Origin: a virus
IMG/VR virus record: IMGVR_UViG_3300042863_003045
Coordinates: 1 to 64,000 of that record
Direction: 5' to 3' (one strand)
DNA length: 64,000 nucleotides
This document shows positions 2,351 to 58,443 of the stretch, in pieces (the first letter of the stretch is position 1; every line of letters starts with the position of its first letter). The position numbers were made by a program, and so were the translations under genes. The notes beneath the pieces were generated by a model. It had not been told where the DNA came from, ran no database searches, and saw only the letters and a program-made list of their open reading frames with translations.

Positions 2351-2938
2351 ATGAAACATTTACAATCCTATAAGTTATTTGAATCTATTATTTCTGAAAA
2401 ATTGTATCATGGCAATCGAAAAGGCGATTTTCCCCCAGAAAAAAGAAGGTTTGCAGGATCAATATTTCTAACAAATAATTTAGAATTTGCTAAAAACTTT
2501 GCTGAACTTGATGAAAGAGAAGAATTTCCTAATGGATCAGTTTGGGAAGTCAATCTAAAACCTAATCTGAGAATATGTAATCCAATGAAGTCTGAAATGA
2601 TGAAAGAATTAAATCTCAAATCATTATTACAAAAAATGATAGATGGAGAGTTTGAAGATCCAACCAACGGAAAAAAATTCAAATCAAATAGAGGAAAAGG
2701 ATTCAAAGGATATGATTATGAAACAGATAAAGAATTTGATTTAGAAGATACCTCAGAAAGTGTATTTAATTATCTTTGGTTGATAAAAAACGGATCTTGG
2801 CAAATAATAGAATCCGAACCTATAATTTCTGAAATAAAATCCAAAAAATATGATGGATTTGAGGTTATTGAAAAAGGATCCAAGAATGTTGCCATTTTTG
2901 ATGAGAAATCTATTTTAAATTTTAAAAAAATATTATGA
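2351..2938 (+). CDS. ADP-ribosyltransferase-like protein with capsid-targeting-like leader
   Basis: LYHG...GSIFLTNNLEFAKNFA...YDGF...NVAIFD pattern of ART-fold proteins; N-terminus MKHLQSYKLFES. Confidence 0.55.
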   Translation: MKHLQSYKLFESIISEKLYHGNRKGDFPPEKRRFAGSIFLTNNLEFAKNFAELDEREEFPNGSVWEVNLKPNLRICNPMKSEMMKELNLKSLLQKMIDGEFEDPTNGKKFKSNRGKGFKGYDYETDKEFDLEDTSESVFNYLWLIKNGSWQIIESEPIISEIKSKKYDGFEVIEKGSKNVAIFDEKSILNFKKIL

Positions 2939-3210
2939 CACTACCATTCATAGAAGAAAAAATATCAGAAAATACTTTCATACGTACTTTCAAAAAAGAT
3001 ACAGATTCAGGAGAGCTGACTTGGCATCGAGACTATGAGAATCGAATTATTGAATCAATCGGAGAAACAGATTGGATGTTTCAAATGGATAATGAACTAC
3101 CAAAAATAATATCTGAAAAAATATATATACCTAAAGGAATATATCATAGAATAATAAAAGGAAATGGTGATCTTAAAATAAAATTAATAAAACTAAATGA
3201 AGTATATTAA
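2935..3210 (+). CDS. Small cupin-fold protein
   Basis: WHRDxExR...IYIPKGIYHRIIKG cupin motifs; ATGA overlap with upstream gene. Confidence 0.6.
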   Translation: MTLPFIEEKISENTFIRTFKKDTDSGELTWHRDYENRIIESIGETDWMFQMDNELPKIISEKIYIPKGIYHRIIKGNGDLKIKLIKLNEVY

Positions 3211-3215
3211 AAAGA

Positions 3216-4334
3216 TTAATCAACATTCCTGAAATTCTCATTATAGATTCTTATTATTTCATCATACTCTTCAATAATACCTGATGTGAAATTCTCATTA
3301 TCATATTTCTGAGATTCAATATATTTTCTTATAAACTCTTCGTAATCCAATTTTATTGATATTTCAATTTGCTCATTTATGGATTCTATAAGATTTTCAT
3401 CTTTAGTTTCTACTTCTTTTACAATATCATCCAAATACTCAACAGAAGAGAAATTTCCTACTTGTAAGAGACTTTCTAGCTTTCTACGTAGTTTTCTATT
3501 ACTTACCAATAGATTGTTTGATATAAGAAGATCTATATAGTCTTTTGAATCTTTTAATTCATCTAATCTATCTATGTCTGATTCTTGAACTACTTTGAAT
3601 TTTTTGAATACTGGTGAGACATTATTAGGATAGAATTCTTCTGAACCATTCTCTGTATCTATTACAAATATTCCTTTTTGGTTGTCGATATCATTTCTAT
3701 CCATCTGAAAAATCGATCCAACAAAAGTAAATTGTTTGTTAGTCTGTGTTAAATGTATGTGACCAGATCTAACTTTTTTGAAAGTACTGAACTCTTCTAT
3801 GTCAATCTTATCATTATTTTTATGTGCAACCGAAGTTAAGTGCATCTTACAACCATTCAAATCTGAATGACAAAAAAGATAGTCACAATTTTTATTATCA
3901 TTTATGAGTTTTATTTGATCGAGACGATTCTCAATATAAGGCATCATCAAAATTTTCAAACCATTATATTCAAGTATATCGGCACTATCATAAATTTTAA
4001 CGCTTGGTATATGTTTGAAAGGTCTAACTGTATTGATTTCAGATGCGCTTTTAGACCAAAGATCGTGGTTACCAACAATAATATGAAATGGTGCTATTTT
4101 AGATATTTCTTCAACAATATCCATGCCATAATTAAGAAGGTTTATTGGAATAACATTTCTGTTATCAAAAAGATCTCCTAAATGTACAATTATATCACCA
4201 GCTCCTACTCTCTCTTTTAAAAGAGGTATTAAAAAATTAGAAAAGTATTGTTTGTGGATTTTATGCCACTTATCTACTGAATTTGGATATCCCAACCCAA
4301 TATGGGTGTCTCCGATAAGAAATATTTTACTCAT
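3216..4334 (-). CDS. Recombination nuclease subunit, T4 gp47/SbcD/Mre11-like
   Basis: GDTHIG, HLGDLFD, VGNHD and SGHIH metallophosphoesterase motifs; 372 aa. Confidence 0.85.
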   Translation of the reverse strand: MSKIFLIGDTHIGLGYPNSVDKWHKIHKQYFSNFLIPLLKERVGAGDIIVHLGDLFDNRNVIPINLLNYGMDIVEEISKIAPFHIIVGNHDLWSKSASEINTVRPFKHIPSVKIYDSADILEYNGLKILMMPYIENRLDQIKLINDNKNCDYLFCHSDLNGCKMHLTSVAHKNNDKIDIEEFSTFKKVRSGHIHLTQTNKQFTFVGSIFQMDRNDIDNQKGIFVIDTENGSEEFYPNNVSPVFKKFKVVQESDIDRLDELKDSKDYIDLLISNNLLVSNRKLRRKLESLLQVGNFSSVEYLDDIVKEVETKDENLIESINEQIEISIKLDYEEFIRKYIESQKYDNENFTSGIIEEYDEIIRIYNENFRNVD

Positions 4335-4357
4335 ATGTTAAAGGACGGAATTATTTT

Positions 4358-4585: not shown

Positions 4586-4630
4586 TTATATCAATTATTT
4601 TTTCTTTAATCCTACATTATTTAAAATATA

Positions 4631-4662
4631 TTTGGCAAAGTTATAAAATTTAACTAAATTTG
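4631..4662 (+). promoter_or_regulatory. Bacteroidota-type primary-sigma promoter (TTTG...TAAATTTG)
   Basis: TTTG at 4631 and TAnnTTTG at 4655-4662 upstream of 4681. Confidence 0.55.
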
Positions 4663-4680
4663 TAGTCTAATAATTAAACT

Positions 4681-6190: not shown

Positions 6191-6253
6191 TCACATCTTT
6201 GATATAGAAAATAATTTACTTATAAAATCCTCATAAAGTTTTAAATGTTTCAT
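6191..6253 (-). pseudogene. Leader-only remnant MKHLKLYEDFISKLFSISKM*
   Basis: Intact leader followed by an early stop; an out-of-frame continuation (MKLYYYAGGEINKPFKVIDS...) runs to about 6114. Confidence 0.45.
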
Positions 6254-6266: not shown

Positions 6267-7004
6267 TTATTTTTTTGTATAAAAACTATAAGTATCTTGT
6301 TGAAAACTTGAATTCGGTCCACTCATTGTTACCTTTTTATGTATCACATCTACATATTTCTCACCAATTTCTTTCCAATAACTAAATTTTTGCCAAAACC
6401 AATCTTCATGTTTCACTTCAATCATAGTTTTCCTTATTTGTTCAATATACTTACTTGATAATTCTTTATTATTCCAATCTAAATCTATTGATCCATCTTT
6501 CAAGTCAATTAAAGCTGCTTGTGTTTTAACATCAAGATCCAAATCATCGGAAAATCCTATCATCGCATCTAACATTCCAGAATCAATTCCAAATTCTTCT
6601 AAACTAACAGGTTGACCTGTTGTCTGTGAATAAGCAACCACCGCAGTTATTAAAATAATCAGTAGTATAGTAAATACAATAATAACTGCTTTAAATAATT
6701 TAGGATATTTTTCTTTAAAATCTTTTACTCTTTTTAATACTGCTAATATAAGTTCAAAGATTTTTTTACTATATCTTTTCAAATTCTCAATAATCTTTTC
6801 AAAGACATAGGATTCAACTTCAAGTTGTTTTAGAATCCAATCTGATATTTTTTGAAATACACTTTCAGTTATATTTTTTCCTTTATCTAAGAAAGATTTA
6901 AAATCAGTAATGATATTCTCATTTATTTTACTTTCTAATCTATCTAATAGATCATCTGCTGTTATTCTAGACTCAAGATATAATTTAAAATTGTCTGTTT
7001 TCAT
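6267..7004 (-). CDS. Hypothetical protein with one TM helix and leader-like N-terminus
   Basis: MKTDNFKLYLES; AVIIVFTILLIILITAVVA. Confidence 0.6.
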   Translation of the reverse strand: MKTDNFKLYLESRITADDLLDRLESKINENIITDFKSFLDKGKNITESVFQKISDWILKQLEVESYVFEKIIENLKRYSKKIFELILAVLKRVKDFKEKYPKLFKAVIIVFTILLIILITAVVAYSQTTGQPVSLEEFGIDSGMLDAMIGFSDDLDLDVKTQAALIDLKDGSIDLDWNNKELSSKYIEQIRKTMIEVKHEDWFWQKFSYWKEIGEKYVDVIHKKVTMSGPNSSFQQDTYSFYTKK

Positions 7005-7007
7005 AAA

Positions 7008-7385
7008 TTATATATTAAATACTCTTTTAAAATTTTCAGGAGCTAAATCTAAATCCAATATCCTAACTTTAATCATCTCATTATTTTCTAAAGCCTTTAC
7101 AATTCTATGTTGACCATCTAAAATAGATTTGATTTCTCCTTTACTCGATAAAAGAATAACCGGATATTTTAAATCAGCAGATTGTACTCTATTAGGATCT
7201 CTTTTAACATCAATTAAAAGATGTTTAATTTCATTAGGATCCATTTCTCTGCCATTGTCTAAATAATCTAAAATATCGTCTAAAGTAAGTCTAATAGTCT
7301 CATCATCAATTTCAGCTTCCCAAAAAGATTCTTTACCTGTTCCTTTAGGTTGTTCAAAATCTTCAAATAATTTTAAATGTTTCAT
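7008..7385 (-). CDS. ParB/Sulfiredoxin-like domain protein with leader
   Basis: ADLKYPVIL...ILDGQHRIVKA; MKHLKLFEDFE. Confidence 0.7.
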   Translation of the reverse strand: MKHLKLFEDFEQPKGTGKESFWEAEIDDETIRLTLDDILDYLDNGREMDPNEIKHLLIDVKRDPNRVQSADLKYPVILLSSKGEIKSILDGQHRIVKALENNEMIKVRILDLDLAPENFKRVFNI

Positions 7386-7392: not shown

Positions 7393-8580
7393 TTATTTAT
7401 TTCTAACTATACCTATTAATGTACTTAACTCTTTTTGCATTTCCAGTAAGTTTGATAAAGAATCTGTTTGTATTTTATCAAATTCTAATTCACTTATTAA
7501 TTTTCCACTTTCATTTACACCGGTTAATATGGTTTCTAAATTAAATTGAAATTTGCTTAGATTATCATATAACACATCTAGAGTATTTTTTAACCCATTT
7601 GCTATCTTATCAATTCTTTCATCTATTTCAATAATTGGCAAATCATATACAAAATAATTTGTTTTATTTGAATATTCTCTAAATTTAGAAGGACTAAAAT
7701 CATTCGTCCATATTGATTCACCTTCTTTATTTTTACTTGGTTTTACTCTAAAATTATTAACATAGTTTTCTGATTCTTCATCAGTTCCATTTAGCACGAA
7801 TACTTTAATTCTATCTGCGAATTTAAGTCCAACTATATAATATTCTAAATATTTATCATTATCCATAACTATACTAGACTTTGAATCAAAATTAAGTAAT
7901 TTAACCTGATATCTATTATTTTGTGAATCAATAATATCAATCGGAGAATTATCTTCCTTTACTGTAGATCTAGAAATTAATCCAGCAATATAAGATTCAA
8001 ATAAAAATCCAGAAGATGCTGGATCAAAATGCACCTTTAGTTCATTAAGATAATGTAGCATCATTATAGCTGACATTTCTTTTCTTATTGTCTCACTGGA
8101 TCTTTTTCTAAGTTGAATATCACTCCTTCCCAAAACTTCTAATCTATCCTTAAACCCTTCTATCCCAGTTTTTTTTGTAACACCTGATGAATATCTTCTT
8201 ATTTTTTTAATTACTTCCATGTCTATTTTAACATTAACCCATCCCGTTGGTAATAGTGGAAGTAATTTTGTATAATTTTCTTCTGTGTTCCAAAATTTTC
8301 TATTGGTATTTGCATTTATAACTGGTAATTTTTTACCATTTAGTAATATATTACCCCTTTCATCTTTATCTAAGAAAGTGAATAACTTGCCAGATCTATC
8401 AATGGCCGCAATATATTCTTTATTATCAGATCCCAAAATTCTATTAACACCAAATGTATCTAAATTTCCTTTTATAGGCAAATCGCGTTTAAATTTTACT
8501 TCACCATCTTCTCCAATAACTAAATCAAAGTGTTTAATCTGATAAGCCTCATTAAAATGGCTAAATTTTATTATTTCCAT
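7393..8580 (-). CDS. PD-(D/E)xK-fold nuclease-like protein with leader (start revised to 8580)
   Basis: GFLFESYIAGL...PIDIID...YQVKL (E..D..QxK); MEIIKFSHFNE follows an AATATATA box. Confidence 0.5.
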   Translation of the reverse strand: MEIIKFSHFNEAYQIKHFDLVIGEDGEVKFKRDLPIKGNLDTFGVNRILGSDNKEYIAAIDRSGKLFTFLDKDERGNILLNGKKLPVINANTNRKFWNTEENYTKLLPLLPTGWVNVKIDMEVIKKIRRYSSGVTKKTGIEGFKDRLEVLGRSDIQLRKRSSETIRKEMSAIMMLHYLNELKVHFDPASSGFLFESYIAGLISRSTVKEDNSPIDIIDSQNNRYQVKLLNFDSKSSIVMDNDKYLEYYIVGLKFADRIKVFVLNGTDEESENYVNNFRVKPSKNKEGESIWTNDFSPSKFREYSNKTNYFVYDLPIIEIDERIDKIANGLKNTLDVLYDNLSKFQFNLETILTGVNESGKLISELEFDKIQTDSLSNLLEMQKELSTLIGIVRNK

Positions 8581-8599: not shown

Positions 8600-9400
8600 T
8601 CAAAATCTAAAATTCTGTGTTTTTTTCCATTCACTTAACAATCTTAGAGCTTCTTCTTTAAACATATCAAATTTATTTGGATTTTCGACAAATCTATCCT
8701 GAAGTCGTTTAATTTTTTTATTAAAATCAGACTGATAAAATTGTACTATGTTTTCTGATGGTATCCCCAATCTTTTAAAATCATCTTTCACTAAAAGAGG
8801 TTCATTTTTATAAGGCTTTGGTTCCTTTTTTGGAGCTTCATACTTTTTAATAATAACATCACTATCTGTCCAAACAAATAGTTTTTGTTTTCCAAAAAAC
8901 TTACTTTTTTTCAAGTCTTCAATTGTTCCAGTTCCAATAACTTCATATTCTATACAATACTCAGCCATTTTATCTAAATCTCCTTGATCATCATCATATG
9001 GATAATTCAAATCTTTATATTCTGAATTCAATAAATCTTGAATATCCGGATTATTTCTCTCACTATAAATAGAATGCCCTTTATAAAACCAATCGTTGAT
9101 AAAACAGAAAAAAGACCAACCTAATTTAGATTGATCGTCAATCTGAATCTCATATATGAAATCTCCGTATAGACCTTTATAATCTGGATTAAAGGCCAAA
9201 GAATCCATAAAATGAACACATCTATGTTTATCTGGAAATCCATTTTTAACTAAAACTCTATTTACATTTTCAGGACCCACCATTTTTCTAAGTTTTGGTG
9301 TGAATTGCATTAATTGATTATCTCCTAATAAATCAAACTGATTGAAACGATAAAATTTTGGTTCTTCAATAAATTTTTCAAATAATTTTATATACTTCAT
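8600..9400 (-). CDS. Hypothetical protein with leader
   Basis: MKYIKLFEKFIEE; 266 aa. Confidence 0.6.
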   Translation of the reverse strand: MKYIKLFEKFIEEPKFYRFNQFDLLGDNQLMQFTPKLRKMVGPENVNRVLVKNGFPDKHRCVHFMDSLAFNPDYKGLYGDFIYEIQIDDQSKLGWSFFCFINDWFYKGHSIYSERNNPDIQDLLNSEYKDLNYPYDDDQGDLDKMAEYCIEYEVIGTGTIEDLKKSKFFGKQKLFVWTDSDVIIKKYEAPKKEPKPYKNEPLLVKDDFKRLGIPSENIVQFYQSDFNKKIKRLQDRFVENPNKFDMFKEEALRLLSEWKKTQNFRF

Positions 9401-10988: not shown

Positions 10989-10993
10989 ATTAG

Positions 10994-12703: not shown

Positions 12704-12776
12704 TACAATAAATATTTTTTAAAAGGGGGCAAAATATTATTTGTATATATAAATTACAAAAAATAATTACAAATAT

Positions 12777-13938: not shown

Positions 13939-13953
13939 TTTTGATATATAATA

Positions 13954-15612: not shown

Positions 15613-15666
15613 TTTGCCAATGTTGAGTTTTATCGCAAAGTTTGAATTGGTTTTTATGGAGGAATT

Positions 15667-21765: not shown

Positions 21766-22371
21766 CTATTTTTCCAAGTTTTTTATCTTTTCTTCTTCGA
21801 CTTGCATAGTCTTCTCAAAATCTTCTTTTTTCTTCTCATAATTCTTTTCAGAAAGCGATAGTTCTTTTTGATTCTGAGATATTTTCATCTTTATTTCTTT
21901 TAAATATTCTTCACTTTTTTTCCTTTGTGAGTCAACCACTGCCTTTTGATCACTATTTTGTAGTTGATTGAATCTATCGATAAGATCAGATATTTGTTTT
22001 TGAACTTCGGATTGTTTTTCTTTATCCTTTTCTATTGATAATATGATTTTATCAACTCTTCTTTTCAGTTTATAAAGAGATGTTAGTAGAGTAAGATATT
22101 TATTTCTCTTATTAGAATCTTTTTGATTATTAAATACATTTTTCTGCAATTCATCATCAACTTCTGAATCTGTTTTATCAAGTTTGGAAAAAATAGACTC
22201 AACTGATGATTTTTTAGATTTGAATTCTTCAAAATCTTTCTTAATTGATTGAAGAGCATCTGAATTAGCTTTATCATTAGAATCAATTATGTTATTATCT
22301 GAGGTTGGTGTTATATCATCTGATATATCATCTTGTTCAAGAAATAAAGAGTAATTTTTTAAAAATTTCAT
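21766..22371 (-). CDS. Coiled-coil protein with leader
   Basis: MKFLKNYSLFLE; heptad-rich. Confidence 0.6.
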   Translation of the reverse strand: MKFLKNYSLFLEQDDISDDITPTSDNNIIDSNDKANSDALQSIKKDFEEFKSKKSSVESIFSKLDKTDSEVDDELQKNVFNNQKDSNKRNKYLTLLTSLYKLKRRVDKIILSIEKDKEKQSEVQKQISDLIDRFNQLQNSDQKAVVDSQRKKSEEYLKEIKMKISQNQKELSLSEKNYEKKKEDFEKTMQVEEEKIKNLEK

Positions 22372-22396: not shown

Positions 22397-22600
22397 TCAA
22401 ATTTTTGAATTAATTATTCTTTCTAATAGTCCTTTACTTATACTTGGATGTATATTAAAGTCCTTTTCGATGAAATTCAATAGCTCTTCTAAAGATTTTA
22501 TATGTTTTGGATAACTTTCACATATTCTATTAATTAAAGAATCATTATTCAATAATTCTTCTTTTATACTAAATGTTTCATATTTTTTAATAGTCTTCAT
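22397..22600 (-). CDS. Small hypothetical protein with leader
   Basis: MKTIKKYETFSIKEE. Confidence 0.55.
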   Translation of the reverse strand: MKTIKKYETFSIKEELLNNDSLINRICESYPKHIKSLEELLNFIEKDFNIHPSISKGLLERIINSKI

Positions 22601-22604: not shown

Positions 22605-23186
22605 TCATACTTTATTGGAATATTCAGATCTTAATTTATCTACTTTTGATTTATAATCTTCTTCTGAAATATTATTCTTTTTTCTTGTTAATTGTAATTC
22701 AGATAGTTTATCAAGTAACTCCCAAAATATTTTTACTATTTTTGGATTTACTCTACTATTTCCGTCTTTATCTATTAGGTGCTGTCCGTTTCTAACTAAT
22801 ACAAAATGTTGATCTCCGCCTTGAAATAATCTCCAATGTCTTGAATTACCAGTATTTTTTATAACTTCAATTTTTGTACCTGATTTAGTATCATTTGGTG
22901 AATATTCTCTTTCTGTATTTTTAATGATCTCTCTTCCTCCTTTAAAAAAGTCATTCACTTTTTCCAATTTTCTTGTTTCAGATTTATAATTTGTTTCTTT
23001 TGAATCCTTCTCTTTATTTTCAGAGTCTTCTGATAAAATTATTCTTCTTTTATGATCTCCAAATCTTACAACTTCAATTTGTTCTAGATTTTTCAATAAT
23101 TTTTGAAAATCATCTTTTACTGTTTGGTCAAATTCAAATTTTTTTCCAAAACTAAAGAATTCTTCTATTTTTACTAAGTGTTTCAT
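22605..23186 (-). CDS. Hypothetical protein with leader
   Basis: MKHLVKIEEF. Confidence 0.55.
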   Translation of the reverse strand: MKHLVKIEEFFSFGKKFEFDQTVKDDFQKLLKNLEQIEVVRFGDHKRRIILSEDSENKEKDSKETNYKSETRKLEKVNDFFKGGREIIKNTEREYSPNDTKSGTKIEVIKNTGNSRHWRLFQGGDQHFVLVRNGQHLIDKDGNSRVNPKIVKIFWELLDKLSELQLTRKKNNISEEDYKSKVDKLRSEYSNKV

Positions 23187-33581: not shown

Positions 33582-34349
33582 TTCCAAATTTAATTCTCCA
33601 TCTTCAGACATTGTAACAATATCAGATAAATGTCCAGCACCAACAAAATAAACACCTGATGTACTATTAATCAAAAATAAATCTCTCATAGTGGTCGCAA
33701 TTCTTGCAAATTTACCAGCCATATTAGGATATTCTTTCCAATTTTCAGGCCATTGTAAATCTTCACCAATATCAAGGAATTTAGACAATGTTTCTTCATT
33801 AGATTCCTGTTTTGACATTTCAACAAAGTCAATATCATCTTCGCCGATTTCACTAAGAAACTTATTTAATTCAACTTCACCTAAATTAAAAATACCCATC
33901 TCAGCAGACCAATCTGGAATTGTTTTTAATAGAACATCAAAAATTGTATCACCTTCTTCAGTGTATTCTATAAGATTTTCTAATCTTTTGTTTTCTTTTG
34001 GGTTTGAAAATAATGAATAAAGAAATACATATTCTTTATCTTTTGGTATTTCACCACTTTCAATTAACTTTTTATCCCAAGAACCCATATATTTATCAGG
34101 ATCTAATTTATCATAAAATGATGATTTAGTTATTGCTTCATTATATTCCAATCCAATTCCTTCACCATAATAACCATATTTGTTAGCTACCTCAAGAATA
34201 TCACTAATCAAATCTTCAGATAACTCTAATGGTTCTTGGTGCATATCACCAACTAAGATTTTTTTATCATTAAACTTAATAACACCATAAGGAGCGACTT
34301 TTGAATTTAGATTAAATTCAAATAGTTTATATGTCTTTAAGTACTTCAT
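33552..34349 (-). CDS. Hypothetical protein with leader
   Basis: MKYLKTYKLFE; VGDMH, RD.FL, FVGAGHL (TraB/EreA-like pattern, weak). Confidence 0.55.
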   Translation of the reverse strand: MKYLKTYKLFEFNLNSKVAPYGVIKFNDKKILVGDMHQEPLELSEDLISDILEVANKYGYYGEGIGLEYNEAITKSSFYDKLDPDKYMGSWDKKLIESGEIPKDKEYVFLYSLFSNPKENKRLENLIEYTEEGDTIFDVLLKTIPDWSAEMGIFNLGEVELNKFLSEIGEDDIDFVEMSKQESNEETLSKFLDIGEDLQWPENWKEYPNMAGKFARIATTMRDLFLINSTSGVYFVGAGHLSDIVTMSEDGELNLELIGGEDLAI

Positions 34350-34440: not shown

Positions 34441-35289
34441 TCAAATATCACTTTTCAATTGTAAAGGTTTACAATTTTCTTGTGTAAAATCTTTTTCTAA
34501 AACCGGCATTTCAATACCATTTACTTTTAGGCTACCATTACCACAAGTAGCTTCTGGAATATATTGTTTAATAAAGTTAGCTATTTTGTTTTTTGAAACT
34601 AAATCCATACCAACTAATTTAACTCCTTCAAACTTCTTAGATTCACCATCGTTATAACCTTGCCAACTTTCATAGTATGTTGCTTTGAAGTCATTTTCAA
34701 TTGATTTTTTTAGTATTATTATACCCTCTTTATTAATCATAATTTCAAATGGTGCCTCTTCTTTTTCAAAGTTGTTGAAACTGGTGGCGATGGATCCAAT
34801 ATGGATATTATAATTTTTACTCCAAACGCCTTGGAATGAGGGGCTATCTATTTCATCAGCTGTATTAAATCTACCAATAAATGGCTGATGTTTTTCATCA
34901 AATCCAAGTTCGAGGTCGTACCAATCCCATAAATTATATTTATTATTTGCAAGTTCACCTATGATAAATTCAACTCTATTAAGAAAACAACCTTCGATTT
35001 CCTCTGAAGTAAAATAAAAATTCAACTTTTCATCACTAAATTCTTTTGCTAAACTATATCTTTTCTGAGATAATTCTTTATTTTGTTTATAAATAGGATC
35101 TTTCAACAACGGGTCCAACCTTTCTTCTTCTTCAGCTTTCTTTTTTTTATAGTTTTCTTCTTGGTTTCTTTGGTTTATCATATTATCAGCTGCTGTACCA
35201 ATCCTTTGTTCTTGTGGAGTATTTCTATTACCTGCTTTTCCAACTAGATACTCTGGACTAAGTTCTTCGTATGTTTTTAAGTATTTCAT
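34441..35289 (-). CDS. Hypothetical protein with leader (cassette cargo)
   Basis: MKYLKTYEE; own AATATATA box; bounded by GTTAAAT (34425) and the attC-like site. Confidence 0.65.
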   Translation of the reverse strand: MKYLKTYEELSPEYLVGKAGNRNTPQEQRIGTAADNMINQRNQEENYKKKKAEEEERLDPLLKDPIYKQNKELSQKRYSLAKEFSDEKLNFYFTSEEIEGCFLNRVEFIIGELANNKYNLWDWYDLELGFDEKHQPFIGRFNTADEIDSPSFQGVWSKNYNIHIGSIATSFNNFEKEEAPFEIMINKEGIIILKKSIENDFKATYYESWQGYNDGESKKFEGVKLVGMDLVSKNKIANFIKQYIPEATCGNGSLKVNGIEMPVLEKDFTQENCKPLQLKSDI

Positions 35290-38605: not shown

Positions 38606-39232
38606 ATGAAACATATTAGAAAATTTGAAAACTATCAAACAAAGAAAAGAAGAGATGAGATTATCAAAGAAGCTGTAATGACAGTAAATGATATCTATAG
38701 AGTGAATACCATGATTGATATTCCACAATCTCTTATCAATGCTTATGTTAAAAAAGTAAAAGACACAACTGGAAAAAATCTTAAACAACTATTCGGTGAT
38801 GTTGTCATCGCAGAAGAAATTGTTAAATTCATAGCACAGAATTACTTGAATGTAGATCAGTTACCCGCTGGAGCACTAACTGGAGATGCTCAGATACAAT
38901 CACAGGGACAAGGTCAAATGCAAGGTCAAGCTCAGATGCAAACTCAACCACAAGGTCAACCAGAGGGACAAGGACAATCTCAAGTACAAGTACAGACACA
39001 AGGTCAGGCTCAAGGTCAGGCACAAGGTCAAGATCAGGCACAAGGTCAGGCTCAAGGTCAGGCTCAAGGTCAAGGTCAGGCACAAGGTCAGTCTCAAGGT
39101 CAGGCACAAGGTCAGGCTCAAGGTCAGGCACAAGGTCAAGGTCAGGCACAAGGTCAAGGTCAGGCACAAGGAGAATTTGAAGAGGTAGATGAAGAAGGAG
39201 AAGAGTCAGAAGAAGATGAACTTCCAATTTAA
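38606..39232 (+). CDS. Leader-bearing protein with Gln/Gly low-complexity tract
   Basis: MKHIRKFENY; (GQAQ)n; acidic tail. Confidence 0.7.
   Translation: MKHIRKFENYQTKKRRDEIIKEAVMTVNDIYRVNTMIDIPQSLINAYVKKVKDTTGKNLKQLFGDVVIAEEIVKFIAQNYLNVDQLPAGALTGDAQIQSQGQGQMQGQAQMQTQPQGQPEGQGQSQVQVQTQGQAQGQAQGQDQAQGQAQGQAQGQGQAQGQSQGQAQGQAQGQAQGQGQAQGQGQAQGEFEEVDEEGEESEEDELPI
38998..39171 (+). repeat. Coding tandem repeat CAAGGTCAGGC(A/T) (GQAQ)
   Basis: Mixed 12 and 18 nt units. Confidence 0.85.
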
Positions 39233-39306: not shown

Positions 39307-39765
39307 ATGAGATATTTAAAGACTTTTGAAAACTTTGATTTTGACTTTGATTCTATAGATTTAGATGAGTCAGAATATTTATATGTAGAAGATTCTCAAA
39401 TTCCAAATGCCGGAAAAGGATTGTTTACATCAATTGATATAGAAAAAAATGAGATAATATCCAAATTCATAGGAGATATTTTATCAGATTATGAAGCAGA
39501 TATCAGAGCTGATAGAGGTGATGATGATTATTTCATGAATTTACCATCTGGTGAAATATTAGATTGTAAATTATCAGATTGTTTTGCTAAATATGCCAAT
39601 GATTCAGAAGGAATAAATAGTGGATTTAAGAATAATTCGTTTATTTCAATGGATGATGAAGATAATGTTGTTTTGGTTGCTAAGAGAGATATTTCGGCTG
39701 GTGAGGAAATATTTGTTAGTTATGGAAAAAAATATTGGAAAAGAAATAAATATAGAATAGTTTAG
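39307..39765 (+). CDS. SET-domain methyltransferase with leader
   Basis: SQIPNAGKGLFT, AKYAND, AKRDISAGEEIFVSYG..YW; MRYLKTFENF. Confidence 0.85.
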   Translation: MRYLKTFENFDFDFDSIDLDESEYLYVEDSQIPNAGKGLFTSIDIEKNEIISKFIGDILSDYEADIRADRGDDDYFMNLPSGEILDCKLSDCFAKYANDSEGINSGFKNNSFISMDDEDNVVLVAKRDISAGEEIFVSYGKKYWKRNKYRIV

Positions 39766-39768: not shown

Positions 39769-40386
39769 ATGAGATATATAAAAAAATTTGAAAATTATAA
39801 TAACAATTCAATACTAATAATTGTTGACGTACAGAGATCATTTCGATCATTCTTTACAGAAATGTATATTCATAAATTAAAGGAATATTGCAAACAATTC
39901 ACAGAAGTATATCAGATTTTCGATAACCATCATGAAGGCAAAAATGTTGATAAAGATTATCTATATGATGATAATCCAGATATTCCAATCAGTGATGAAC
40001 TCTATACATTTCCAAACCAAAAAGATATAATCGAAAAAAGATATAACTATGATGTGAATGTTGATTTTTATAAAAAAATCTTAGATAAAGAAACTTATAA
40101 AGAATCTAAAGAAAAAGAAGATAATAACACTTTAAAGAAAGGAGATTTGTTTAAAACAACCGAGGGAACTGCAATAGTTTATATCGGGAATAATCATAAT
40201 TGGTTTCATATTCCTAAAAAGCTTTATGAACTATTTTCAAATATTAATGGAAAAGAAATTGTGATTTCCGGAGGAAGTGATTCCGAATGTTTACAAGATA
40301 TTTACATTTCTGCTAAATCGATGGGAGTTGATATTAAAAGAGATCATAGATTCATATATTCTGCATCACATTGTCCTATAAGGTAA
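39769..40386 (+). CDS. Isochorismatase/nicotinamidase-like cysteine hydrolase with leader
   Basis: LIIVDVQ, IEK, VISGGSDSECL (D-K-C triad); MRYIKKFENY. Confidence 0.65.
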   Translation: MRYIKKFENYNNNSILIIVDVQRSFRSFFTEMYIHKLKEYCKQFTEVYQIFDNHHEGKNVDKDYLYDDNPDIPISDELYTFPNQKDIIEKRYNYDVNVDFYKKILDKETYKESKEKEDNNTLKKGDLFKTTEGTAIVYIGNNHNWFHIPKKLYELFSNINGKEIVISGGSDSECLQDIYISAKSMGVDIKRDHRFIYSASHCPIR

Positions 40387-46408: not shown

Positions 46409-46888
46409 ATGAAAAAACAAGTCAATGTCATGAACTTTAAAAAATTCCTTTCCTATTTCAGTTTGAAAGAATCTTATTTCAAAGATTCTAAACTTAATTC
46501 AATACTTGATAAGATGAACAAAGGTGTATCAATAACTAGTCGTGAGCAGAATTTTCTCGACAACTATGATAACATCATAGATGATGAATTTAAAGATGTA
46601 AAGATGCTTACAGCAAATTCAACATTCAATCAAATTATAACACTTTTAGAAAGAAATAAAAAAATAATATGCAACATTTCTGATAGAAATGGCACAATTG
46701 GACTTCCCATAAAGAAGATTGAAAAGAATTATGAAAACGAAAAGATCATAATAGAAGTTTCCGGTGGTGAAAAATTAGAACTAAAAGATAATTTCTTTTA
46801 TGAGATAAATTATAACTTTGATAAAGACAATTACTCACTAGAAACATCAGATGAATTCTTTGAAAAAATACCAGTTAAGAATGATTAA
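46409..46888 (+). CDS. Hypothetical protein with leader-like motif and DUF6576-like helix pair
   Basis: MNFKKFLSYFSLKE; LNSILDKMNKGVSITSREQNFL. Confidence 0.55.
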   Translation: MKKQVNVMNFKKFLSYFSLKESYFKDSKLNSILDKMNKGVSITSREQNFLDNYDNIIDDEFKDVKMLTANSTFNQIITLLERNKKIICNISDRNGTIGLPIKKIEKNYENEKIIIEVSGGEKLELKDNFFYEINYNFDKDNYSLETSDEFFEKIPVKND

Positions 46889-47144
46889 AAGATTTAAGGA
46901 ATTCAATGAATCAATTTCAGGAACAGAATTTGTTGGATCATTTGGTCCAAATTATGGGGATACTCAAGTTAAAAACAAAACCATAAGTTCAAATGATACA
47001 TCAGTCATATATTCTGATCTAACTGGTGAAATATACACCCACGATGATTATAACTCAATCTATCAGGAATATTTGAAAATAGGAGGAGAACCTCTTCACG
47101 GATTTAATTTAGAGAATTTAAATAGAGTTATTTCATTTTTATAA
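46881..47144 (+). CDS. Small protein with leader (start revised to 46881)
   Basis: MIKRFKEFNES. Confidence 0.55.
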   Translation: MIKRFKEFNESISGTEFVGSFGPNYGDTQVKNKTISSNDTSVIYSDLTGEIYTHDDYNSIYQEYLKIGGEPLHGFNLENLNRVISFL

Positions 47145-53207: not shown

Positions 53208-53477
53208 TTATCTATATTTTATAACTCCTCCTATATTATTGGTACTTAATTTCATATGTTTTGGATAACCGGTTGTTTTCAATTGATATCCTGTTATCTG
53301 ATCTGGGAATTTAGTAAAGTATTTCACTAAGTCAGATTTTATTTCATCAATAGAATCATAGTCTTCTTCTTCAATATTCATAATTTGAATCAATTGTCTG
53401 ATATTATTTTCAACATATGATTCTGCTGTTAACTTATGTTTTAAATTAAATTCTGAAAATCCTTTTAAATTATCCAT
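53208..53477 (-). CDS. Small protein with leader
   Basis: MDNLKGFSEFN; AATATATA box upstream. Confidence 0.55.
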   Translation of the reverse strand: MDNLKGFSEFNLKHKLTAESYVENNIRQLIQIMNIEEEDYDSIDEIKSDLVKYFTKFPDQITGYQLKTTGYPKHMKLSTNNIGGVIKYR

Positions 53478-56173: not shown

Positions 56174-57078
56174 TGAATTTCACACAGACAAAAACATTCT
56201 ATAATAATAAACCAATAGAATATATCATAAAAGAAACTTATAATGACCTTAAAGAGGATAGAGAATTTATTCCACGATTTTCTTTAAAGAAATTTAAAGG
56301 ATTTGAGAAAATTCCTGTAAATGAGCCAATTAAGTACGATGAAAAACTTATAATTAAAGCAATTGAATATGGCCTTGTTTTCCTTATTAACTATAAAGGA
56401 GAAAAAGATAAAAATTTTGCTGGACATGAAAGGGTTATCTATCCGATGGTAATTGGACGTTCCTCAAAAGGAAAAACGCTTATAAGGGGATGGCACCTAA
56501 ACGGTTGGTCTGTATCAAACAGAAGGCATATTAATAAGATATGGAGACTTTTCAGAGCTGATAGAATATTATCTATGACTTTTACTGGTTCTTTTTATAG
56601 GTTGCCTCCTGCTGGTTATAATATGAATGATAAGGGAATGAGAGGTGGTATAATAGCTAAAGCAGATTTTAATCAAATAAGAAGGAATCAACAGAAATTA
56701 GTTCAGCAGAATGCGATTCAGAATAGAGATGAAGTATCACTTGGAACAGAAGAAAGGAAATTCGCTACTGTTAGAATAAAAGCAACTGATACTAAACTTG
56801 ATCTATTGAAAGCAGTTGAGAATCCTTATATAAACAATTTGAAAGATTCAGAAAGTCTAAGGATATCATTTTTAAAGAGTATTTATGGAAATCAGTATAT
56901 TGCTATACTTGGTGCGCTTGGAGAGCCTGGCAACACCGTAAAAGTACTTACTGATAAGGGAAATAATATTGGTGTTTTTAAAGTACTTGACTCAACAACT
57001 GGTAAAGTATTGAAAAGTATAAAAAATGTAAAGGGCAATAGCATCTATGATCTTTATATTTTTGATAAAAAAATTTAA
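56173..57078 (+). CDS. WYL-like domain protein
   Basis: INYKG...RVIYPMVIG...IRGW...WRLFRADRI. Confidence 0.55.
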   Translation: MNFTQTKTFYNNKPIEYIIKETYNDLKEDREFIPRFSLKKFKGFEKIPVNEPIKYDEKLIIKAIEYGLVFLINYKGEKDKNFAGHERVIYPMVIGRSSKGKTLIRGWHLNGWSVSNRRHINKIWRLFRADRILSMTFTGSFYRLPPAGYNMNDKGMRGGIIAKADFNQIRRNQQKLVQQNAIQNRDEVSLGTEERKFATVRIKATDTKLDLLKAVENPYINNLKDSESLRISFLKSIYGNQYIAILGALGEPGNTVKVLTDKGNNIGVFKVLDSTTGKVLKSIKNVKGNSIYDLYIFDKKI

Positions 57079-57166
57079 ATGGTGAGGATACTAAAGTTTA
57101 ATCAAATTAATGAATCAAATGAAATAAATATATGGAAATATAGATTTTATTTTAATATATAATACT

Positions 57167-58279
57167 ATGAGAATATTTAATTATAAAATTTTTAATGAGT
57201 CTGCTTCTATTGGAGATGATGATGGTGTGAATCAAATTGTCCAAAATTTATCAAGGATAATTAATGATATGAGATTTAAGTTGTTAAATCTTATAGAAAT
57301 CAATTCAAATATAGATGTTAAAGAGGAATTAGATCTTTTAAAAGATGAGTTTGGCGAGGATGTTATTAGAGATTTGAATATAGAAGCACTACTTAGAAAG
57401 TTATATCAGATAATTTCACTTAAAGGAAGTAACATAAAAGAAAGAATTTCAAATGAAATAGATTCATATTTAAATTCTTTAGAAAGTAGATTGAATAGTC
57501 AAAAAGAAATAAGTGATGATGATCATTTTGATGAATTTGAGGGAGAATATTCAATTCTGCCAAGAAAAAAATACGAAAAAGAGAAATTTGGACTTCAAGT
57601 TGAATTAATGAAACTACAAGAGTGGGTTGTTAAGAATAATAAAAAAGTTGCAATTGTATTTGAGGGTAGGGATTCTGCTGGAAAAGGTTCGACAATAAAA
57701 AGATTCATTGAATATATGAATCCTAAATATTTCAGGGTTGTTGCTCTTGGAATACCAAGTGAAGAAGAAAGGAACAATTGGTTTGGAAGGTATGAGAATC
57801 ATCTTCCTAAAGAAGGTGAAATAGTTTTTTTTGATAGAAGTTGGTACAATCGAGGTGTTGTTGAGCCGGTTATGGGATATTGTACAGAAGATCAATATGA
57901 TGATTTTATGGACAATGTTGTTAATTGGGAAGAATCTCTAATAAGAGATGGTATTATCTTGATAAAATTCTGGTTCTCTATAACGAAAGATAAACAACAA
58001 CAAAGATTTAAAATAAGACAAGAATCTCCATTAAAATATTGGAAGTTTTCACCAAATGATGCAAAAGTAGTTGATAAGTTCGAAATGATAGGAGAATTTA
58101 AAAATATTATGTTCCAAAAAACATCAACAAGAACAACTCCTTGGGTTGTTATAAACTCCAATGATAAAAAGATCGGAAGATTGAATGCGATCAGATATGC
58201 TCTGGATAAGATAGATTATGATGATAAAGATGAATCAAAATGCAAATGGTATCCAGAGGTAGTTAATGTTTTGTTGTAA
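57167..58279 (+). CDS. ppk2: Polyphosphate kinase 2 with N-terminal leader/extension
   Basis: LQVELMKLQ, FEGRDSAGKG, FDRSWYNR, WKFSP.D, KKIGRLN; MRIFNYKIFNES. Confidence 0.9.
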   Translation: MRIFNYKIFNESASIGDDDGVNQIVQNLSRIINDMRFKLLNLIEINSNIDVKEELDLLKDEFGEDVIRDLNIEALLRKLYQIISLKGSNIKERISNEIDSYLNSLESRLNSQKEISDDDHFDEFEGEYSILPRKKYEKEKFGLQVELMKLQEWVVKNNKKVAIVFEGRDSAGKGSTIKRFIEYMNPKYFRVVALGIPSEEERNNWFGRYENHLPKEGEIVFFDRSWYNRGVVEPVMGYCTEDQYDDFMDNVVNWEESLIRDGIILIKFWFSITKDKQQQRFKIRQESPLKYWKFSPNDAKVVDKFEMIGEFKNIMFQKTSTRTTPWVVINSNDKKIGRLNAIRYALDKIDYDDKDESKCKWYPEVVNVLL

Positions 58280-58296
58280 AATATGATTTAACACAA

Positions 58297-58443
58297 TTAG
58301 AGATTCTCTTTTTTAACTTTAGAATATTTATATACACCTCTTAGTAAAGTCCCATTAAATACATCAGGGAATTTATTGGAGAATTCTGAGGAAGCGAATT
58401 CCTCTTTAATAAAATCTAAATATCTTTTAATAATCTTACTCAC
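58297..58443 (-). pseudogene. Truncated leader-bearing ORF (48 aa)
   Basis: GTG start: MSKIIKRYLDFIKEEF...; AATATATA box upstream. Confidence 0.4.

What the first reader, a model, noticed from the sequence alone, without database searches (positions are those of the whole stretch)
2351..58443. Shared capsid-targeting-like leader on more than 20 unrelated proteins
Seen at starts 2351 MKHLQSYKLFES, 7004 MKTDNFKLYLES, 7385 MKHLKLFEDFE, 8580 MEIIKFSHFNE, 9400 MKYIKLFEKFIEE, 22371 MKFLKNYSLFLE, 22600 MKTIKKYETF, 23186 MKHLVKIEEF, 34349 MKYLKTYKLFE, 35289 MKYLKTYEE, 38606 MKHIRKFENY, 39307 MRYLKTFENF, 39769 MRYIKKFENY, 46881 MIKRFKEFNES, 53477 MDNLKGFSEFN, 57167 MRIFNYKIFNES, plus truncated copies. 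The bodies are unrelated, and most genes follow the AATATATA box. Sheath, tube, TerL, RecA and NAMPT lack the leader. Established: T4 internal proteins use a ~10 aa MKT(Y/F)xEF-like capsid-targeting sequence removed by the gp21 protease after Glu. Inference: a modular address tag loads a large effector set into the head.
Basis: partly seen in the sequence, partly recalled or inferred. Interest (0 to 1): 0.8.

Follow-up and report, generated by a model that had tools for sequence, protein, structure and literature searches.

The report
Capsid-targeting-like leader tag in huge phage
About a quarter of the genes in this fragment of a huge T4-type phage of Bacteroidota start with the same 10-13-residue tag, which is found almost only in viruses and resembles the T4 signal that loads proteins into the phage head; if it works the same way, a huge phage's injected proteins could be read from sequence, but loading and cutting are untested.

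Summary
Sixteen genes in the window (28 of 123 ORFs in the 102.7-kb contig) start with M-[KR]-[HY]-[LI]-K-x-[FY]-E-x-[FY] or a shifted K-x-[FY]-x-x-[FY]-x-E-S variant. Their bodies are unrelated.

- **Statistics:** an external scoring matrix puts 17 N-termini above the 99.9th percentile of internal windows (0.12 expected).
- **Distribution:** the tag marks more than 120 IMG/VR stretches (4 for the reversed pattern). Prokaryote genomes are near chance level. It is absent from 11 other genomes tested, including AT-rich and huge ones.
- **Level of selection:** synonymous sites vary, so selection acts on the peptide.
- **Link to T4-type heads:** every complete tag-bearing genome tested (one recorded in two pieces) has a gp23-type capsid protein and a gp21-type protease fused to a scaffold.
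- **Match to the T4 signal:** the tag has hydrophobic or aromatic residues at positions 4 and 7, where T4's capsid-targeting determinants lie. It usually ends in hydrophobic-x-Glu, the T4 protease motif.
- **Modularity:** two AlphaFold models leave the tag disordered outside the fold, and leaderless SET homologues exist.

Best reading (about 0.5): an expanded T4-like capsid-targeting tag. Packaging and cleavage are untested, the tagged proteins are acidic, and the AATATATA box is not specific to them. First readers of this scan noted the same tag on other DNA.

The parts
2351..2938 (+). Tagged gene, 195 aa, MKHLQSYKLFES; no family match
   Evidence: p=0.001. Box 7 nt upstream. Pfam and PHROGs find nothing.
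6267..7004 (-). Tagged gene, 245 aa, variant tag MKTDNFKLYLES
   Evidence: Box 4 nt upstream. Y-L-E motif ends at residue 11.
6191..6253 (-). Orphan leader remnant: 20-aa ORF that starts MKHLKLYEDF and then stops
7008..7385 (-). Tagged gene, 125 aa, MKHLKLFEDFEQ; the best-scoring tag; body matches phrog_17560
   Evidence: Matrix score 30.1. PHROG match. Tagged orthologues in L012 and L022.
7393..8580 (-). Tagged gene, 395 aa counted from ATG 8580, variant tag MEIIKFSHFNEA
   Evidence: TTAATATATA lies 6 nt upstream of ATG 8580. F-N-E motif ends at residue 11.
8600..9400 (-). Tagged gene, 266 aa, MKYIKLFEKFIEE
   Evidence: Matrix score 28.1..
21766..22371 (-). Tagged gene, 201 aa, weaker tag MKFLKNYSLFLEQ; directly upstream of the sheath gene on the same strand
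   Evidence: p=0.03. Box 4 nt upstream.
22397..22600 (-). Tagged gene, 67 aa, MKTIKKYETF
   Evidence: (p<0.001).
22605..23186 (-). Tagged gene, 193 aa, MKHLVKIEEFF
   Evidence: p<0.001. PHROGs find nothing.
33552..34349 (-). Tagged gene, 265 aa, MKYLKTYKLFE
34441..35289 (-). Tagged gene, 282 aa, MKYLKTYEEL
   Evidence: Matrix score 12.2. Box 21 nt upstream.
38606..39232 (+). Tagged gene, 208 aa, MKHIRKFENY
   Evidence: Box 23 nt upstream.
39307..39765 (+). Tagged SET-domain methyltransferase, 152 aa, MRYLKTFENF followed by an acidic linker; the domain spans residues 36-140
   Evidence: Pfam SET, E 5e-14. Homologues with and without the tag. AlphaFold: residues 1-10 have pLDDT 47, the body 85-96.
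39769..40386 (+). Tagged protein, 205 aa, MRYIKKFENY; weak isochorismatase/nicotinamidase-like fold with invariant Asp20, Lys90 and Cys174
   Evidence: 120 orthologues at 66-96% identity all keep the tag. AlphaFold: residues 1-9 have pLDDT below 50. Foldseek E 3.5e-3, TM about 0.45 to nicotinamidases.
46881..47144 (+). Tagged gene, 87 aa, variant tag MIKRFKEFNES; closest in wording to T4 MKTFKEF
   Evidence: The start overlaps the stop of the preceding ORF.
53208..53477 (-). Tagged gene, 89 aa, MDNLKGFSEFN
   Evidence: p=0.0095. Box 9 nt upstream.
57167..58279 (+). Tagged PPK2 (polyphosphate kinase 2), 370 aa, variant tag MRIFNYKIFNES; the domain spans residues 133-356
   Evidence: Pfam PPK2, E 6e-78. 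Box 5 nt upstream.
58297..58443 (-). Truncated remnant: 48 aa with a GTG start and a leader-like KIIKRYLDFIKEE. Its continuation resembles the N-terminus of a 265-aa tagged protein in L058.

Best explanation
The shared N-terminus is a short, detachable peptide address tag. It is an expanded relative, by descent or by convergence, of the capsid-targeting sequence (CTS) of phage T4 internal proteins.

Proposed mechanism:
1. Tagged genes are transcribed with the head genes from the AATATATA late-type promoter, under a gp55-like sigma factor.
2. The tag's hydrophobic face (positions 4, 7 and 10/11) docks the protein onto the prohead core formed by the protease-scaffold fusion.
3. The capsid shell closes around the core.
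4. The gp21-type protease then cuts after a Glu in a hydrophobic-x-Glu motif at the end of the tag (residue 8, 11 or 13) and releases the cargo inside the head.
5. The cargo enters the next host cell with the DNA. It consists of mostly small, acidic, fast-changing proteins plus a few enzymes: a SET methyltransferase, a class I methyltransferase, PPK2 and a cysteine-hydrolase-like protein.

Shown here: the tag exists, is anchored at gene starts, is almost confined to viruses, is selected at the peptide level, is modular, lies outside the fold in two models, and is found in phages with T4-type head genes.

Inferred: late expression, docking, cleavage, packaging and injection.
For: **Enrichment at gene starts.**
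- 17 of 123 N-termini exceed the 99.9th percentile of internal windows (0.12 expected).
- Own contig: 11 strict-pattern hits, reversed control 0.

**Almost confined to viruses.**
The reversed pattern matches 4 stretches.
- Only 76 stretches match in 596 Gb of prokaryote genomes, mostly chance or internal matches and low-GC MAG contigs.

**Not an effect of AT-richness.**
- Zero strict hits in CP220, HTVC008M, P-SSM2, pT24, PTm1, PAU, T4, Lak-B1, the 735-kb LR756501, MA9V-2 and MaF61.
- A looser pattern gives 13 hits here, against 1-2 (control level) in Lak-B1 and LR756501.

**Selection acts on the peptide.**
- Positions left free in the search are conserved: position 6 Leu/Thr, 11 Ile/Val/Leu (48%), 12 Asn (39%), 13 Glu (55%).
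- Synonymous codons vary, mostly as in gene bodies; the exceptions are a C-ending preference at codon 3 and a mild A/T excess at codons 5 and 7.

**The tag is a modular add-on.**
- Bodies are unrelated here and among the 21 tagged ORFs of the complete 256-kb genome G041.
- SET homologues split into a tagged class and a leaderless class that align from the same residue.
- AlphaFold places residues 1-10 outside the fold in two unrelated proteins (pLDDT 47 and 41).

**Link to T4-type heads.**
- 25 of 50 tag-bearing contigs of at least 50 kb have a Pfam Gp23 capsid protein; summed CheckV completeness predicts 22 if all such phages have one.
- All five genomes IMG/VR rates complete that have Gp23 also have the phrog_207 protease as a 600-770-aa fusion; two fragments have the protease at a contig end.
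- G017, which seemed an exception, is half of an LR756504-like genome.
- The own contig has a portal, a protease-scaffold fusion, a capsid protein and a gp55-like sigma factor.

**Register with the T4 CTS.**
- T4 IPIII and IPII start MKTYQEFIAE; IPI starts MKTFKEF.
- Targeting depends on residues 4 and 7, processing on residues 8 and 10 (PMC9026906).
- The tag has hydrophobic position 4 and an aromatic residue (mostly Phe) at position 7, and often ends in [ILV]-x-E.
- 23 of 28 tags here have hydrophobic-x-Glu ending at residues 6-16, against 32% of untagged N-termini and 29% of internal 16-mers.
- The same kind of motif occurs in the scaffold repeats (Y-I-A-E, 10 copies) and at S-I-N-E in the capsid protein. 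By my reading against T4 gp23 this is the region of the gp23 cleavage site; I made no formal alignment.

**Gene position.**
- In four 140-256-kb relatives a conserved small protein with an acidic tail and a tag-like N-terminus lies between portal and protease, where T4 has gp67 and gp68.
- Here four tagged genes lie between the portal (76340) and the protease-scaffold gene (85831).
- G041 has a 15-gene tagged array.

**Promoter.**
- The box is enriched before tagged genes (odds ratio 5).
- It precedes the head operon here and in G041.
Against: - There are no proteomic, expression or cleavage data for any tag-bearing phage, and none of the cultured phages tested has the tag.
- Tagged proteins are acidic (median pI 5.2 against 6.6 for untagged, p=0.006; 5.0 for the IMG/VR set). 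The T4 internal proteins are basic (PMC9026906).
- About 23% of ORFs are tagged here, against 3-4 genes in T4. That is a very large cargo, and it includes metabolic-looking enzymes (PPK2).
- Five tags here lack a hydrophobic-x-Glu motif: 38606, 39307, 39769, 69219 and 96993.
- Close relatives with the same capsid type lack the tag (735-kb LR756501, Lak). LR756501 even has the same scaffold repeats. The tag is therefore not required by this head type, and the co-occurrence with T4-type heads could simply reflect shared ancestry within one clade.
- A scoring-matrix test for tag-like 7-mers in the scaffold found no enrichment.
- The box also precedes a UvsX-like gene, so its timing class is inferred, not shown.
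- Follow-ups of similar tags elsewhere in this scan were later given low odds for the packaging reading.
Confidence: 0.5

Rival explanations
1. The tag is a docking or sorting signal for a different phage-encoded partner. Candidates are a chaperone, another protease or peptidase, a modifying enzyme, a membrane or intracellular site, or a turnover (degron) system. On this reading it has nothing to do with the capsid.
For: - The tag is almost confined to viruses, peptide-level, modular and disordered. That fits any short linear docking motif.
- Tagged proteins are small and acidic, like many intracellular host-takeover or anti-defence proteins.
- The 735-kb relative has the same scaffold repeats but no tag.
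- Another T4-like phage tag seen in this scan turned out to pair with a radical-SAM enzyme rather than the capsid.
- The contig encodes a second large peptidase-like protein (phrog_4191, 94180-95919).
Against: - No radical-SAM enzyme is found in three complete tag-bearing genomes.
- No constant neighbouring gene flanks the tagged genes, which are scattered here and arrayed in G041.
- The register with the T4 targeting residues 4 and 7, the hydrophobic-x-Glu ending and the head-module position all point to the prohead.
Confidence: 0.25
2. The tag is an expression element. The first 10-13 codons (as mRNA or nascent peptide) would promote initiation or early elongation on the nearly leaderless late transcripts of these phages, perhaps with phage-modified ribosomes. 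The peptide itself would have no address function.
For: - In many tagged genes the box lies only 4-10 nt from the ATG, which implies leaderless or very short 5' UTRs.
- Codon 3 shows an unusual preference for C-ending His and Tyr codons (CAC 54% against 25% in bodies).
- Lys at position 2 and AT-rich early codons are generally favourable for expression (general knowledge).
Against: - Synonymous sites vary, mostly as in gene bodies, while the amino acids are conserved out to position 13.
- Tagged genes occur with the box at 4-10 nt, at 19-26 nt, with no box, and inside tightly coupled operons.
- Untagged genes with the box 4-5 nt upstream exist here and in G041.
- The pattern is at chance level in cellular genomes and absent from the other AT-rich phages tested.
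Confidence: 0.12
3. The tag is a by-product of gene turnover. On this reading the promoter plus the first codons form a cassette boundary that spreads by recombination, like the mobile regulatory cassettes of T4-type phages, with little function of its own.
For: - Orphan or truncated leaders occur at 6191-6253(-), 58297-58443(-) and contig position 81798(+).
- Tagged genes form fast-changing arrays.
- The box and the tag often travel together.
Against: - Leaders share only 68% DNA identity on average. Identical in-register runs average 7 nt, with a maximum of 16 nt. By my judgement that is too little for homologous exchange.
- The peptide is conserved across phages of 22-46% GC with different upstream sequences.
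- The tag is kept in 120 orthologues at 66-96% identity. This indicates purifying selection on the peptide.
Confidence: 0.08

Closest known systems
[quoted passage not shown]
   Same: - A 10-13-residue tag at the extreme N-terminus of otherwise unrelated, fast-evolving proteins.
- Starts M-K, with a hydrophobic residue at position 4 and Phe/Tyr at position 7, the T4 targeting determinants.
- Usually ends in hydrophobic-x-Glu, the T4 processing determinant.
- The genome encodes a gp23-type capsid protein, a gp21-type protease, a scaffold and a gp55-type late sigma factor.
- Tagged genes form variable arrays like the T4 internal-protein locus.
   Different: - Three residues longer (F-E-x inserted before F-[ILV]-N-E), or ending at Glu8 or Glu11 in this phage.
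- 28 tagged ORFs in 102 kb, and by extrapolation some 80-120 per 630-kb genome, against 3-4 in T4.
- The cargo is acidic rather than basic and includes enzymes.
- The protease is fused to a scaffold with 14-residue repeats.
- Packaging and cleavage are untested.
- Hosts are Bacteroidota, not enterobacteria.
Long N-terminal propeptides of ejection proteins in phiKZ-like giant phages (SPN3US, phiKZ, 201phi2-1), cut by a gp21-related protease at A/S/G-x-Glu (PMC5694885, PMC7411985, PMC10052503)
   Same: Giant phages load many internal or ejection proteins into the head. A homologous protease removes N-terminal propeptides after Glu. The propeptides are thought to target the proteins to the prohead.
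   Different: Those propeptides are 80-130 residues long and specific to each family, not a short tag shared by unrelated proteins. Only about 8 of about 50 head proteins are processed. That lineage and its head architecture are different.
Other shared N-terminal tags noted by this scan in huge phages (for example MNRYDIALGKKP, MNWYK...) and the radical-SAM-linked tag of RB43-type phages
   Same: One short N-terminal peptide on many unrelated proteins of a large phage. All of these come from AI notes of this scan, not from publications.
   Different: The sequences and lineages differ. The RB43-type tag pairs with a radical-SAM/SPASM enzyme, which three complete genomes bearing the present tag lack.

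Membership tests
T4-type capsid-targeting sequence (CTS) | Lies at the extreme N-terminus, 10-20 residues long, on proteins whose mature parts are unrelated | tested here: met
   The tag begins at Met1 of 28 ORFs. Conservation ends at about residue 13. Bodies are unrelated by blastp.
T4-type capsid-targeting sequence (CTS) | Targeting determinants at residues 4 and 7 (Tyr4 and Phe7 in IPIII) | tested here: met
   Position 4 is Ile/Leu/Val/Phe and position 7 is Phe/Tyr in nearly all canonical tags here (two have Ile) and in 132 IMG/VR tags. T4 determinants from PMC9026906. This shows the same register, not the same function.
T4-type capsid-targeting sequence (CTS) | Processing site hydrophobic-x-Glu at the end of the tag (Ile8 and Glu10 in IPIII) | tested here: inconclusive
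   23 of 28 tags here have such a motif ending at residues 6-16, against about 30% of controls. 56 of 132 IMG/VR tags have it ending exactly at residue 13. Five tags here lack it. The motif is short and is partly built into the tag definition.
T4-type capsid-targeting sequence (CTS) | The genome encodes the partner machinery: a gp21-type prohead protease, a scaffold core and a gp23-type shell | tested here: met
   Own contig: phrog_207 protease (E 1e-30) fused to a repeat scaffold, phrog_138 capsid protein and a portal. Other tag-bearing genomes.
T4-type capsid-targeting sequence (CTS) | The tag is sufficient to load a protein into the prohead | not testable with these tools
   Needs tag-reporter fusions and procapsid or virion analysis.
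T4-type capsid-targeting sequence (CTS) | The tag is removed by the prohead protease, and the mature protein is present in virions and injected | not testable with these tools
   No cultured tag-bearing phage was found among those tested, and no proteome is available.
T4 internal proteins (IPI-III type cargo) | Small, basic, DNA-associated proteins | tested here: not met
   Tagged proteins have a median pI of 5.2 (7% above pI 8) here and 5.0 in the IMG/VR set. They are therefore not internal-protein-like cargo, although T4 CTS fusions to foreign proteins such as GFP are packaged (PMC9026906).
Radical-SAM/SPASM-linked N-terminal tag (RB43 type, from this scan's notes) | A radical-SAM enzyme encoded in the same genome or neighbourhood | tested here: not met
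   PF04055 is absent from the own contig and from the complete genomes G041, G003 and G023.

The most novel reading that the evidence does not exclude
A sequence-readable capsid address tag defines the packaged, injected proteome of a large group of uncultivated T4-type phages of Bacteroidota, from 140-kb phages to 640-kb Mahaphage-clade genomes. Dozens of pre-made proteins per virion, perhaps about 100 in the largest genomes, would be delivered with the DNA. They include protein methyltransferases, kinases, GNATs, an Acb1-like phosphodiesterase and many unknown small acidic proteins. That would be a far larger injected arsenal than in any studied phage, and it could be predicted from metagenomes alone.
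Probability: 0.4. Interest if true: 0.8.

Novelty: new variant of a known kind. Interest (0 to 1): 0.62.

Why it matters
If the tag is a working capsid-targeting signal, the virion cargo of uncultured huge phages could be read directly from sequence. That would show which of their many unknown genes act in the first seconds of infection, before any phage gene is expressed.

It would also extend a mechanism known from three or four T4 proteins to hundreds of protein families, and supply a natural set of tags for loading foreign proteins into large capsids.

Even if the capsid reading fails, the tag remains a widespread, strongly selected 13-residue peptide found almost only in viruses, on hundreds of unrelated proteins. 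It then implies an unknown partner, and I found no description of it in four literature searches.

Tried and rejected
- **Short-query blastn for cultured carriers.** A 42-nt leader searched against cultured phages gave only chance hits.
- **Eukaryotic giant viruses.** No NCLDV capsid was found in tag-bearing contigs that lack Gp23. Their lack of a capsid gene is better explained by fragmentation: G017 and G047 are two pieces of an LR756504-like genome.
- **Radical-SAM partner**, as for another T4-like tag in this scan: absent.
- **The tag as a mimic of the scaffold repeat.** The resemblance is only loose (aromatic-x-x-aromatic-[ILV]-x-E). A scoring-matrix test found 3 scaffold hits in the top 100 against a 2.4% share, so no enrichment.
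- **Recent capture of the SET gene from the host.** Leaderless homologues are named Flavobacterium or Winogradskyella by their sources.
- **Compositional artefact.** Rejected by the reversed-pattern controls and the AT-rich negative genomes.
- **T4's late promoter TATAAATA as the promoter in this group.** It shows no positional signal in G041 (8 of 42 occurrences near gene starts), whereas AATATATA does (28 of 38).
- **Function of 39769.** Pfam, PHROGs and PDB sequence searches found nothing. Only a weak fold match to nicotinamidases was found.

Full report
**What the window is.** The window is the first 64 kb of a 102,656-bp IMG/VR virus record with about 28% GC, which CheckV rates 21% complete. 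Its capsid protein is 66% identical to those of the 635-642-kb 'uncultured phage' genomes LR745206 and LR756502. It is 50-52% identical to LR756504 and the 735-kb LR756501, and 30% to the Lak phages. These belong to the Mahaphage clade, predicted to infect Bacteroidetes (PMC7162821).

The contig encodes the following T4-type genes:
- a tail sheath and a T4-type large terminase;
- a UvsX-like recombinase and NAMPT;
- a portal, a head-maturation protease (phrog_207, E 1e-30) forming the first ~315 residues of a 696-aa ORF, and a gp23-type major capsid protein;
- a gp55-like late sigma factor (phrog_234).

**Observation.**
- A regex for the tag finds 25 six-frame hits in the contig. Of these, 18 sit exactly at the start of the longest ORF, and most of the others are truncated remnants or probable true starts.
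- I built a scoring matrix from 132 tagged ORFs of other viral contigs. It places 17 of 123 N-termini above the 99.9th percentile of 25,242 internal windows (0.12 expected).
- Ten window genes are canonical by this test. Six carry weaker or register-shifted forms ([FY]-K-x-[FY]-x-E-S).
- Counting variants, 28 of 123 ORFs in the contig are tagged, 16 of them in the window.
- Remnants lie at 6191-6253(-) and 58297-58443(-), with a weak one at 3197(+), and at contig position 81798(+) outside the window.
- The bodies share no blastp similarity, apart from one paralogue pair outside the window.

**Beyond chance and base composition.**
- The strict DNA pattern gives 11 hits here and 27 in LR745206; the reversed pattern gives 0 in both.
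That is 159 matches, 150 of them opening an ORF of at least 50 aa, in contigs of 22-46% GC. The reversed pattern hits 4 stretches.
- In 596 Gb of prokaryote genomes only 76 stretches match. Most are internal or chance matches, or low-GC contigs inside MAGs.
- Eleven other genomes have no strict hit: CP220, HTVC008M, P-SSM2, pT24, PTm1, PAU, T4, Lak-B1, LR756501, Chryseobacterium phage MA9V-2 and Flavobacterium phage MaF61.
- A looser pattern gives 13 hits here, against control-level counts of 1-2 in LR756501 and Lak-B1.

**Peptide, not nucleic acid.** Positions the search left free are still conserved: position 6 Leu/Thr, 11 Ile/Val/Leu (48%), 12 Asn (39%) and 13 Glu (55%). The wider consensus is therefore M-K-[HY]-[IL]-K-[LT]-F-E-x-F-[ILV]-N-E. 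Synonymous codons at Lys2, Glu8 and Phe10 match body usage. Lys5 and Phe7 show a mild A/T excess. Only codon 3 departs clearly, favouring C-ending His and Tyr codons. Leaders in this contig share 68% DNA identity, with identical in-register runs averaging 7 nt.

**Modularity.**
- The tagged SET protein (39307) has 403 homologues. Those at 62-99% identity nearly all carry the tag plus an acidic linker; a few have variant or mis-called starts. Those at 55-60% identity are 135-143 aa long, lack the tag, and align from the same E-S-D-Y-L-Y residues.
- The 39769 family has 1,157 members. The top 120 (66-96% identity) all keep the tag.
- AlphaFold models of both proteins give confident bodies and a disordered tag, with pLDDT 47 and 41 for the first ten residues.
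- The 39769 body weakly resembles nicotinamidase/isochorismatase folds and has an invariant Asp, Lys and Cys.
- Other identifiable cargo here: PPK2 (57167) and a class I methyltransferase (79883).
- Among 132 tagged ORFs elsewhere, most have no Pfam match. The exceptions include GNATs, P-loop kinases, SET, NT5C and a 2H/Acb1-like protein.

**Link to T4-type heads.**
- Of 50 tag-bearing contigs of at least 50 kb, 25 have a Pfam Gp23 match. Summing their CheckV completeness predicts 22 if every such phage has one.
- All five genomes that IMG/VR rates complete and that have Gp23 also have the protease, as a 600-770-aa fusion. Two further fragments have the protease at a contig end.
- None of those lacking Gp23 has an NCLDV capsid.
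- G017 appeared to be an exception: 348 kb, rated 'complete', with no capsid gene. Together with G047 it shares all 18 strict hits, string for string, with LR756504. The two are therefore halves of one ~636-kb genome.
- The protease-scaffold fusions of this phage and eight others contain tandem 14-residue repeats (Y-S-E-Y-I-A-E-N-L-D-K-N-I-x), each with an [ILV]-A-E motif.

**Comparison with T4.**
- In T4 the pattern M-K-x-[FY]-x-E-F occurs four times: at ipI, ipII, ipIII and the hypothetical gene 61.1.
- The literature states that the first 10 residues of IPIII suffice for packaging. Targeting depends mainly on residues 4 and 7, and processing on residues 8 and 10. The internal proteins are diverse proteins that share only the CTS (PMC9026906; PMC3012670; PMC5694885).
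- The present tag has a hydrophobic residue at position 4 and Phe/Tyr at position 7, in the same register. Its ending, F-[ILV]-N-E, parallels T4's F-I-A-E three residues later.
- Here 23 of 28 tags contain hydrophobic-x-Glu ending at residues 6-16, against 32% of untagged N-termini and 29% of internal 16-mers.

**Gene position.**
- In four 140-256-kb relatives the order is portal, then a conserved 112-130-aa protein with a tag-like N-terminus and an acidic tail, then protease-scaffold, then capsid protein. That small protein occupies the place of T4 gp67 and gp68.
- In this contig four tagged genes (79883, 80530, 81879, 82167) lie between the portal and the protease-scaffold gene.
- In the complete 256-kb genome G041, 21 of 349 ORFs are tagged (0 of 1,302 internal-Met controls). 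Fifteen form one co-directional array, and their bodies are unrelated.
- Strict-pattern counts are 27-32 in three ~635-642-kb genomes and 29 in a 482-kb genome. The strict pattern finds a quarter to two-fifths of tags where I could check (5 of 21 in G041; 11 hits against 28 tagged ORFs here). The largest genomes may therefore hold about 80-120 tagged genes. This is an extrapolation.

**The AATATATA box.**
- The box is no commoner than composition predicts (59 occurrences against about 55 expected). About 38 of the 59, however, lie 4-10 or 19-26 nt upstream of a gene start.
- It precedes 19 of 28 tagged and 28 of 95 untagged genes.
- The untagged genes it precedes include the protease-scaffold and UvsX-like genes here and the portal operon in G041.
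- With a gp55-like sigma factor present, a late-type promoter is the simplest reading. Its timing is inferred, not shown.

**Weighing.** The capsid-targeting reading is the most specific explanation that fits all the results, but it rests on resemblance and association. Points against it:
- There is no virion or cleavage evidence.
- The cargo is acidic (median pI 5.2).
- The tagged fraction is very large.
- Five tags lack a cleavage-type motif.
- Close relatives with the same capsid type lack the tag, including one with the same scaffold repeats.
- The test for scaffold mimicry was negative.
- Similar tags examined elsewhere in this scan were later given low odds for the packaging reading.

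I put the capsid-targeting reading at about 0.5. A different docking partner gets 0.25; a radical-SAM partner specifically is excluded. An expression element gets 0.12 and a recombination by-product 0.08.

**Novelty.** The T4 literature already suggests that the CTS may let T4-like phages load varied proteins (PMC9026906). Four searches of the held library found no description of this tag or of tags of this kind in huge Bacteroidota phages. First readers of this scan noted the same tag in about 20 related genomes on the same day, and no follow-up on them was shown. I class it as a new variant of a known kind.

Noticed in passing
G000 85831-87921 (outside the window; L003:1831-3921): The head protease is fused to a scaffold that contains ten tandem 14-residue repeats (YSEYIAENLDKNI-x). 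The same repeats occur in eight other tag-bearing phages and in the 735-kb LR756501. They are absent from Lak-B1 and from all cultured phages tested. The repeat core Y-S-E-Y-I-A-E resembles the T4 CTS core Y-Q-E-F-I-A-E.
   Followed up: partly
IMG/VR records behind L043 (G017, 347,857 bp) and L116 (G047, 288,572 bp): Both records are classed as complete with inverted terminal repeats. Together they carry exactly the 18 strict tag hits of LR756504.1 (636,363 bp), string for string. They are therefore two pieces of one ~636-kb genome, and the completeness calls are wrong.
   Followed up: partly
window-wide, e.g. 2336, 7016, 22383, 39295, 57154 (short spacing); 35318, 38575, 50018, 51753 (long spacing): The AATATATA box has a bimodal distance to the start codon, 4-10 nt or 19-26 nt. 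The short class implies leaderless or nearly leaderless mRNAs. The same box and the same bimodality occur in the 256-kb relative G041, where T4's TATAAATA shows no positional signal.
   Followed up: partly
codon 3 of the tag (132 IMG/VR ORFs): His and Tyr at position 3 strongly prefer C-ending codons: CAC 54% against 25% in gene bodies, TAC 43% against 24%. This is the only clear departure from body codon usage within the tag. It is unexplained.
   Followed up: no
window 6191-6253(-), 58297-58443(-), 3197-3229(+); contig 81798-81830(+): There are orphan or truncated leaders. One is a 20-aa ORF made of a leader and little else. One is a 48-aa remnant resembling the start of a 265-aa tagged protein of another phage. 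One is a leader fused in frame to the end of the preceding gene. Together they suggest frequent gain and loss of tagged genes.
   Followed up: partly
T4 genome AF158101, 18966-19130(-): The hypothetical T4 protein gp61.1 (54 aa) starts MKTFKEFIKED. It is the only T4 gene besides ipI, ipII and ipIII to match the CTS-like pattern. Its record does not annotate it as a head protein.
   Followed up: no
L218-L221 (relatives G041, G002, G050, G048), between the portal and protease genes: A conserved 112-130-aa protein (45-58% identity among the four) has a tag-like N-terminus and a strongly acidic tail. It occupies the position of the T4 prohead core genes 67 and 68. I found no orthologue in this contig.
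   Followed up: partly
window 60582-62958 and 39769-40386: An NAD-salvage pair is present: NAMPT (NAMPT_N plus NAPRTase) and a cytidylyltransferase-like/Nudix protein. The tagged protein 39769 has a weak nicotinamidase-like fold. Together they may belong to an NAD-related counter-defence theme.
   Followed up: partly
window 10266-17391, 29157-30026, 50054-51655, 55268-56173; contig 82595-85706: Homing-endonuclease-like genes (HNH and GIY-YIG/NUMOD) are unusually dense. Two of them sit between the tagged-gene cluster and the protease-scaffold gene.
   Followed up: no
LR756501.1 (735 kb) and Lak-B1: These close relatives have the same capsid type but lack the tag entirely, even under a loose pattern. 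LR756501 nevertheless keeps the scaffold repeats. They may use a different tag. I could not check this without their full sequences.
   Followed up: partly
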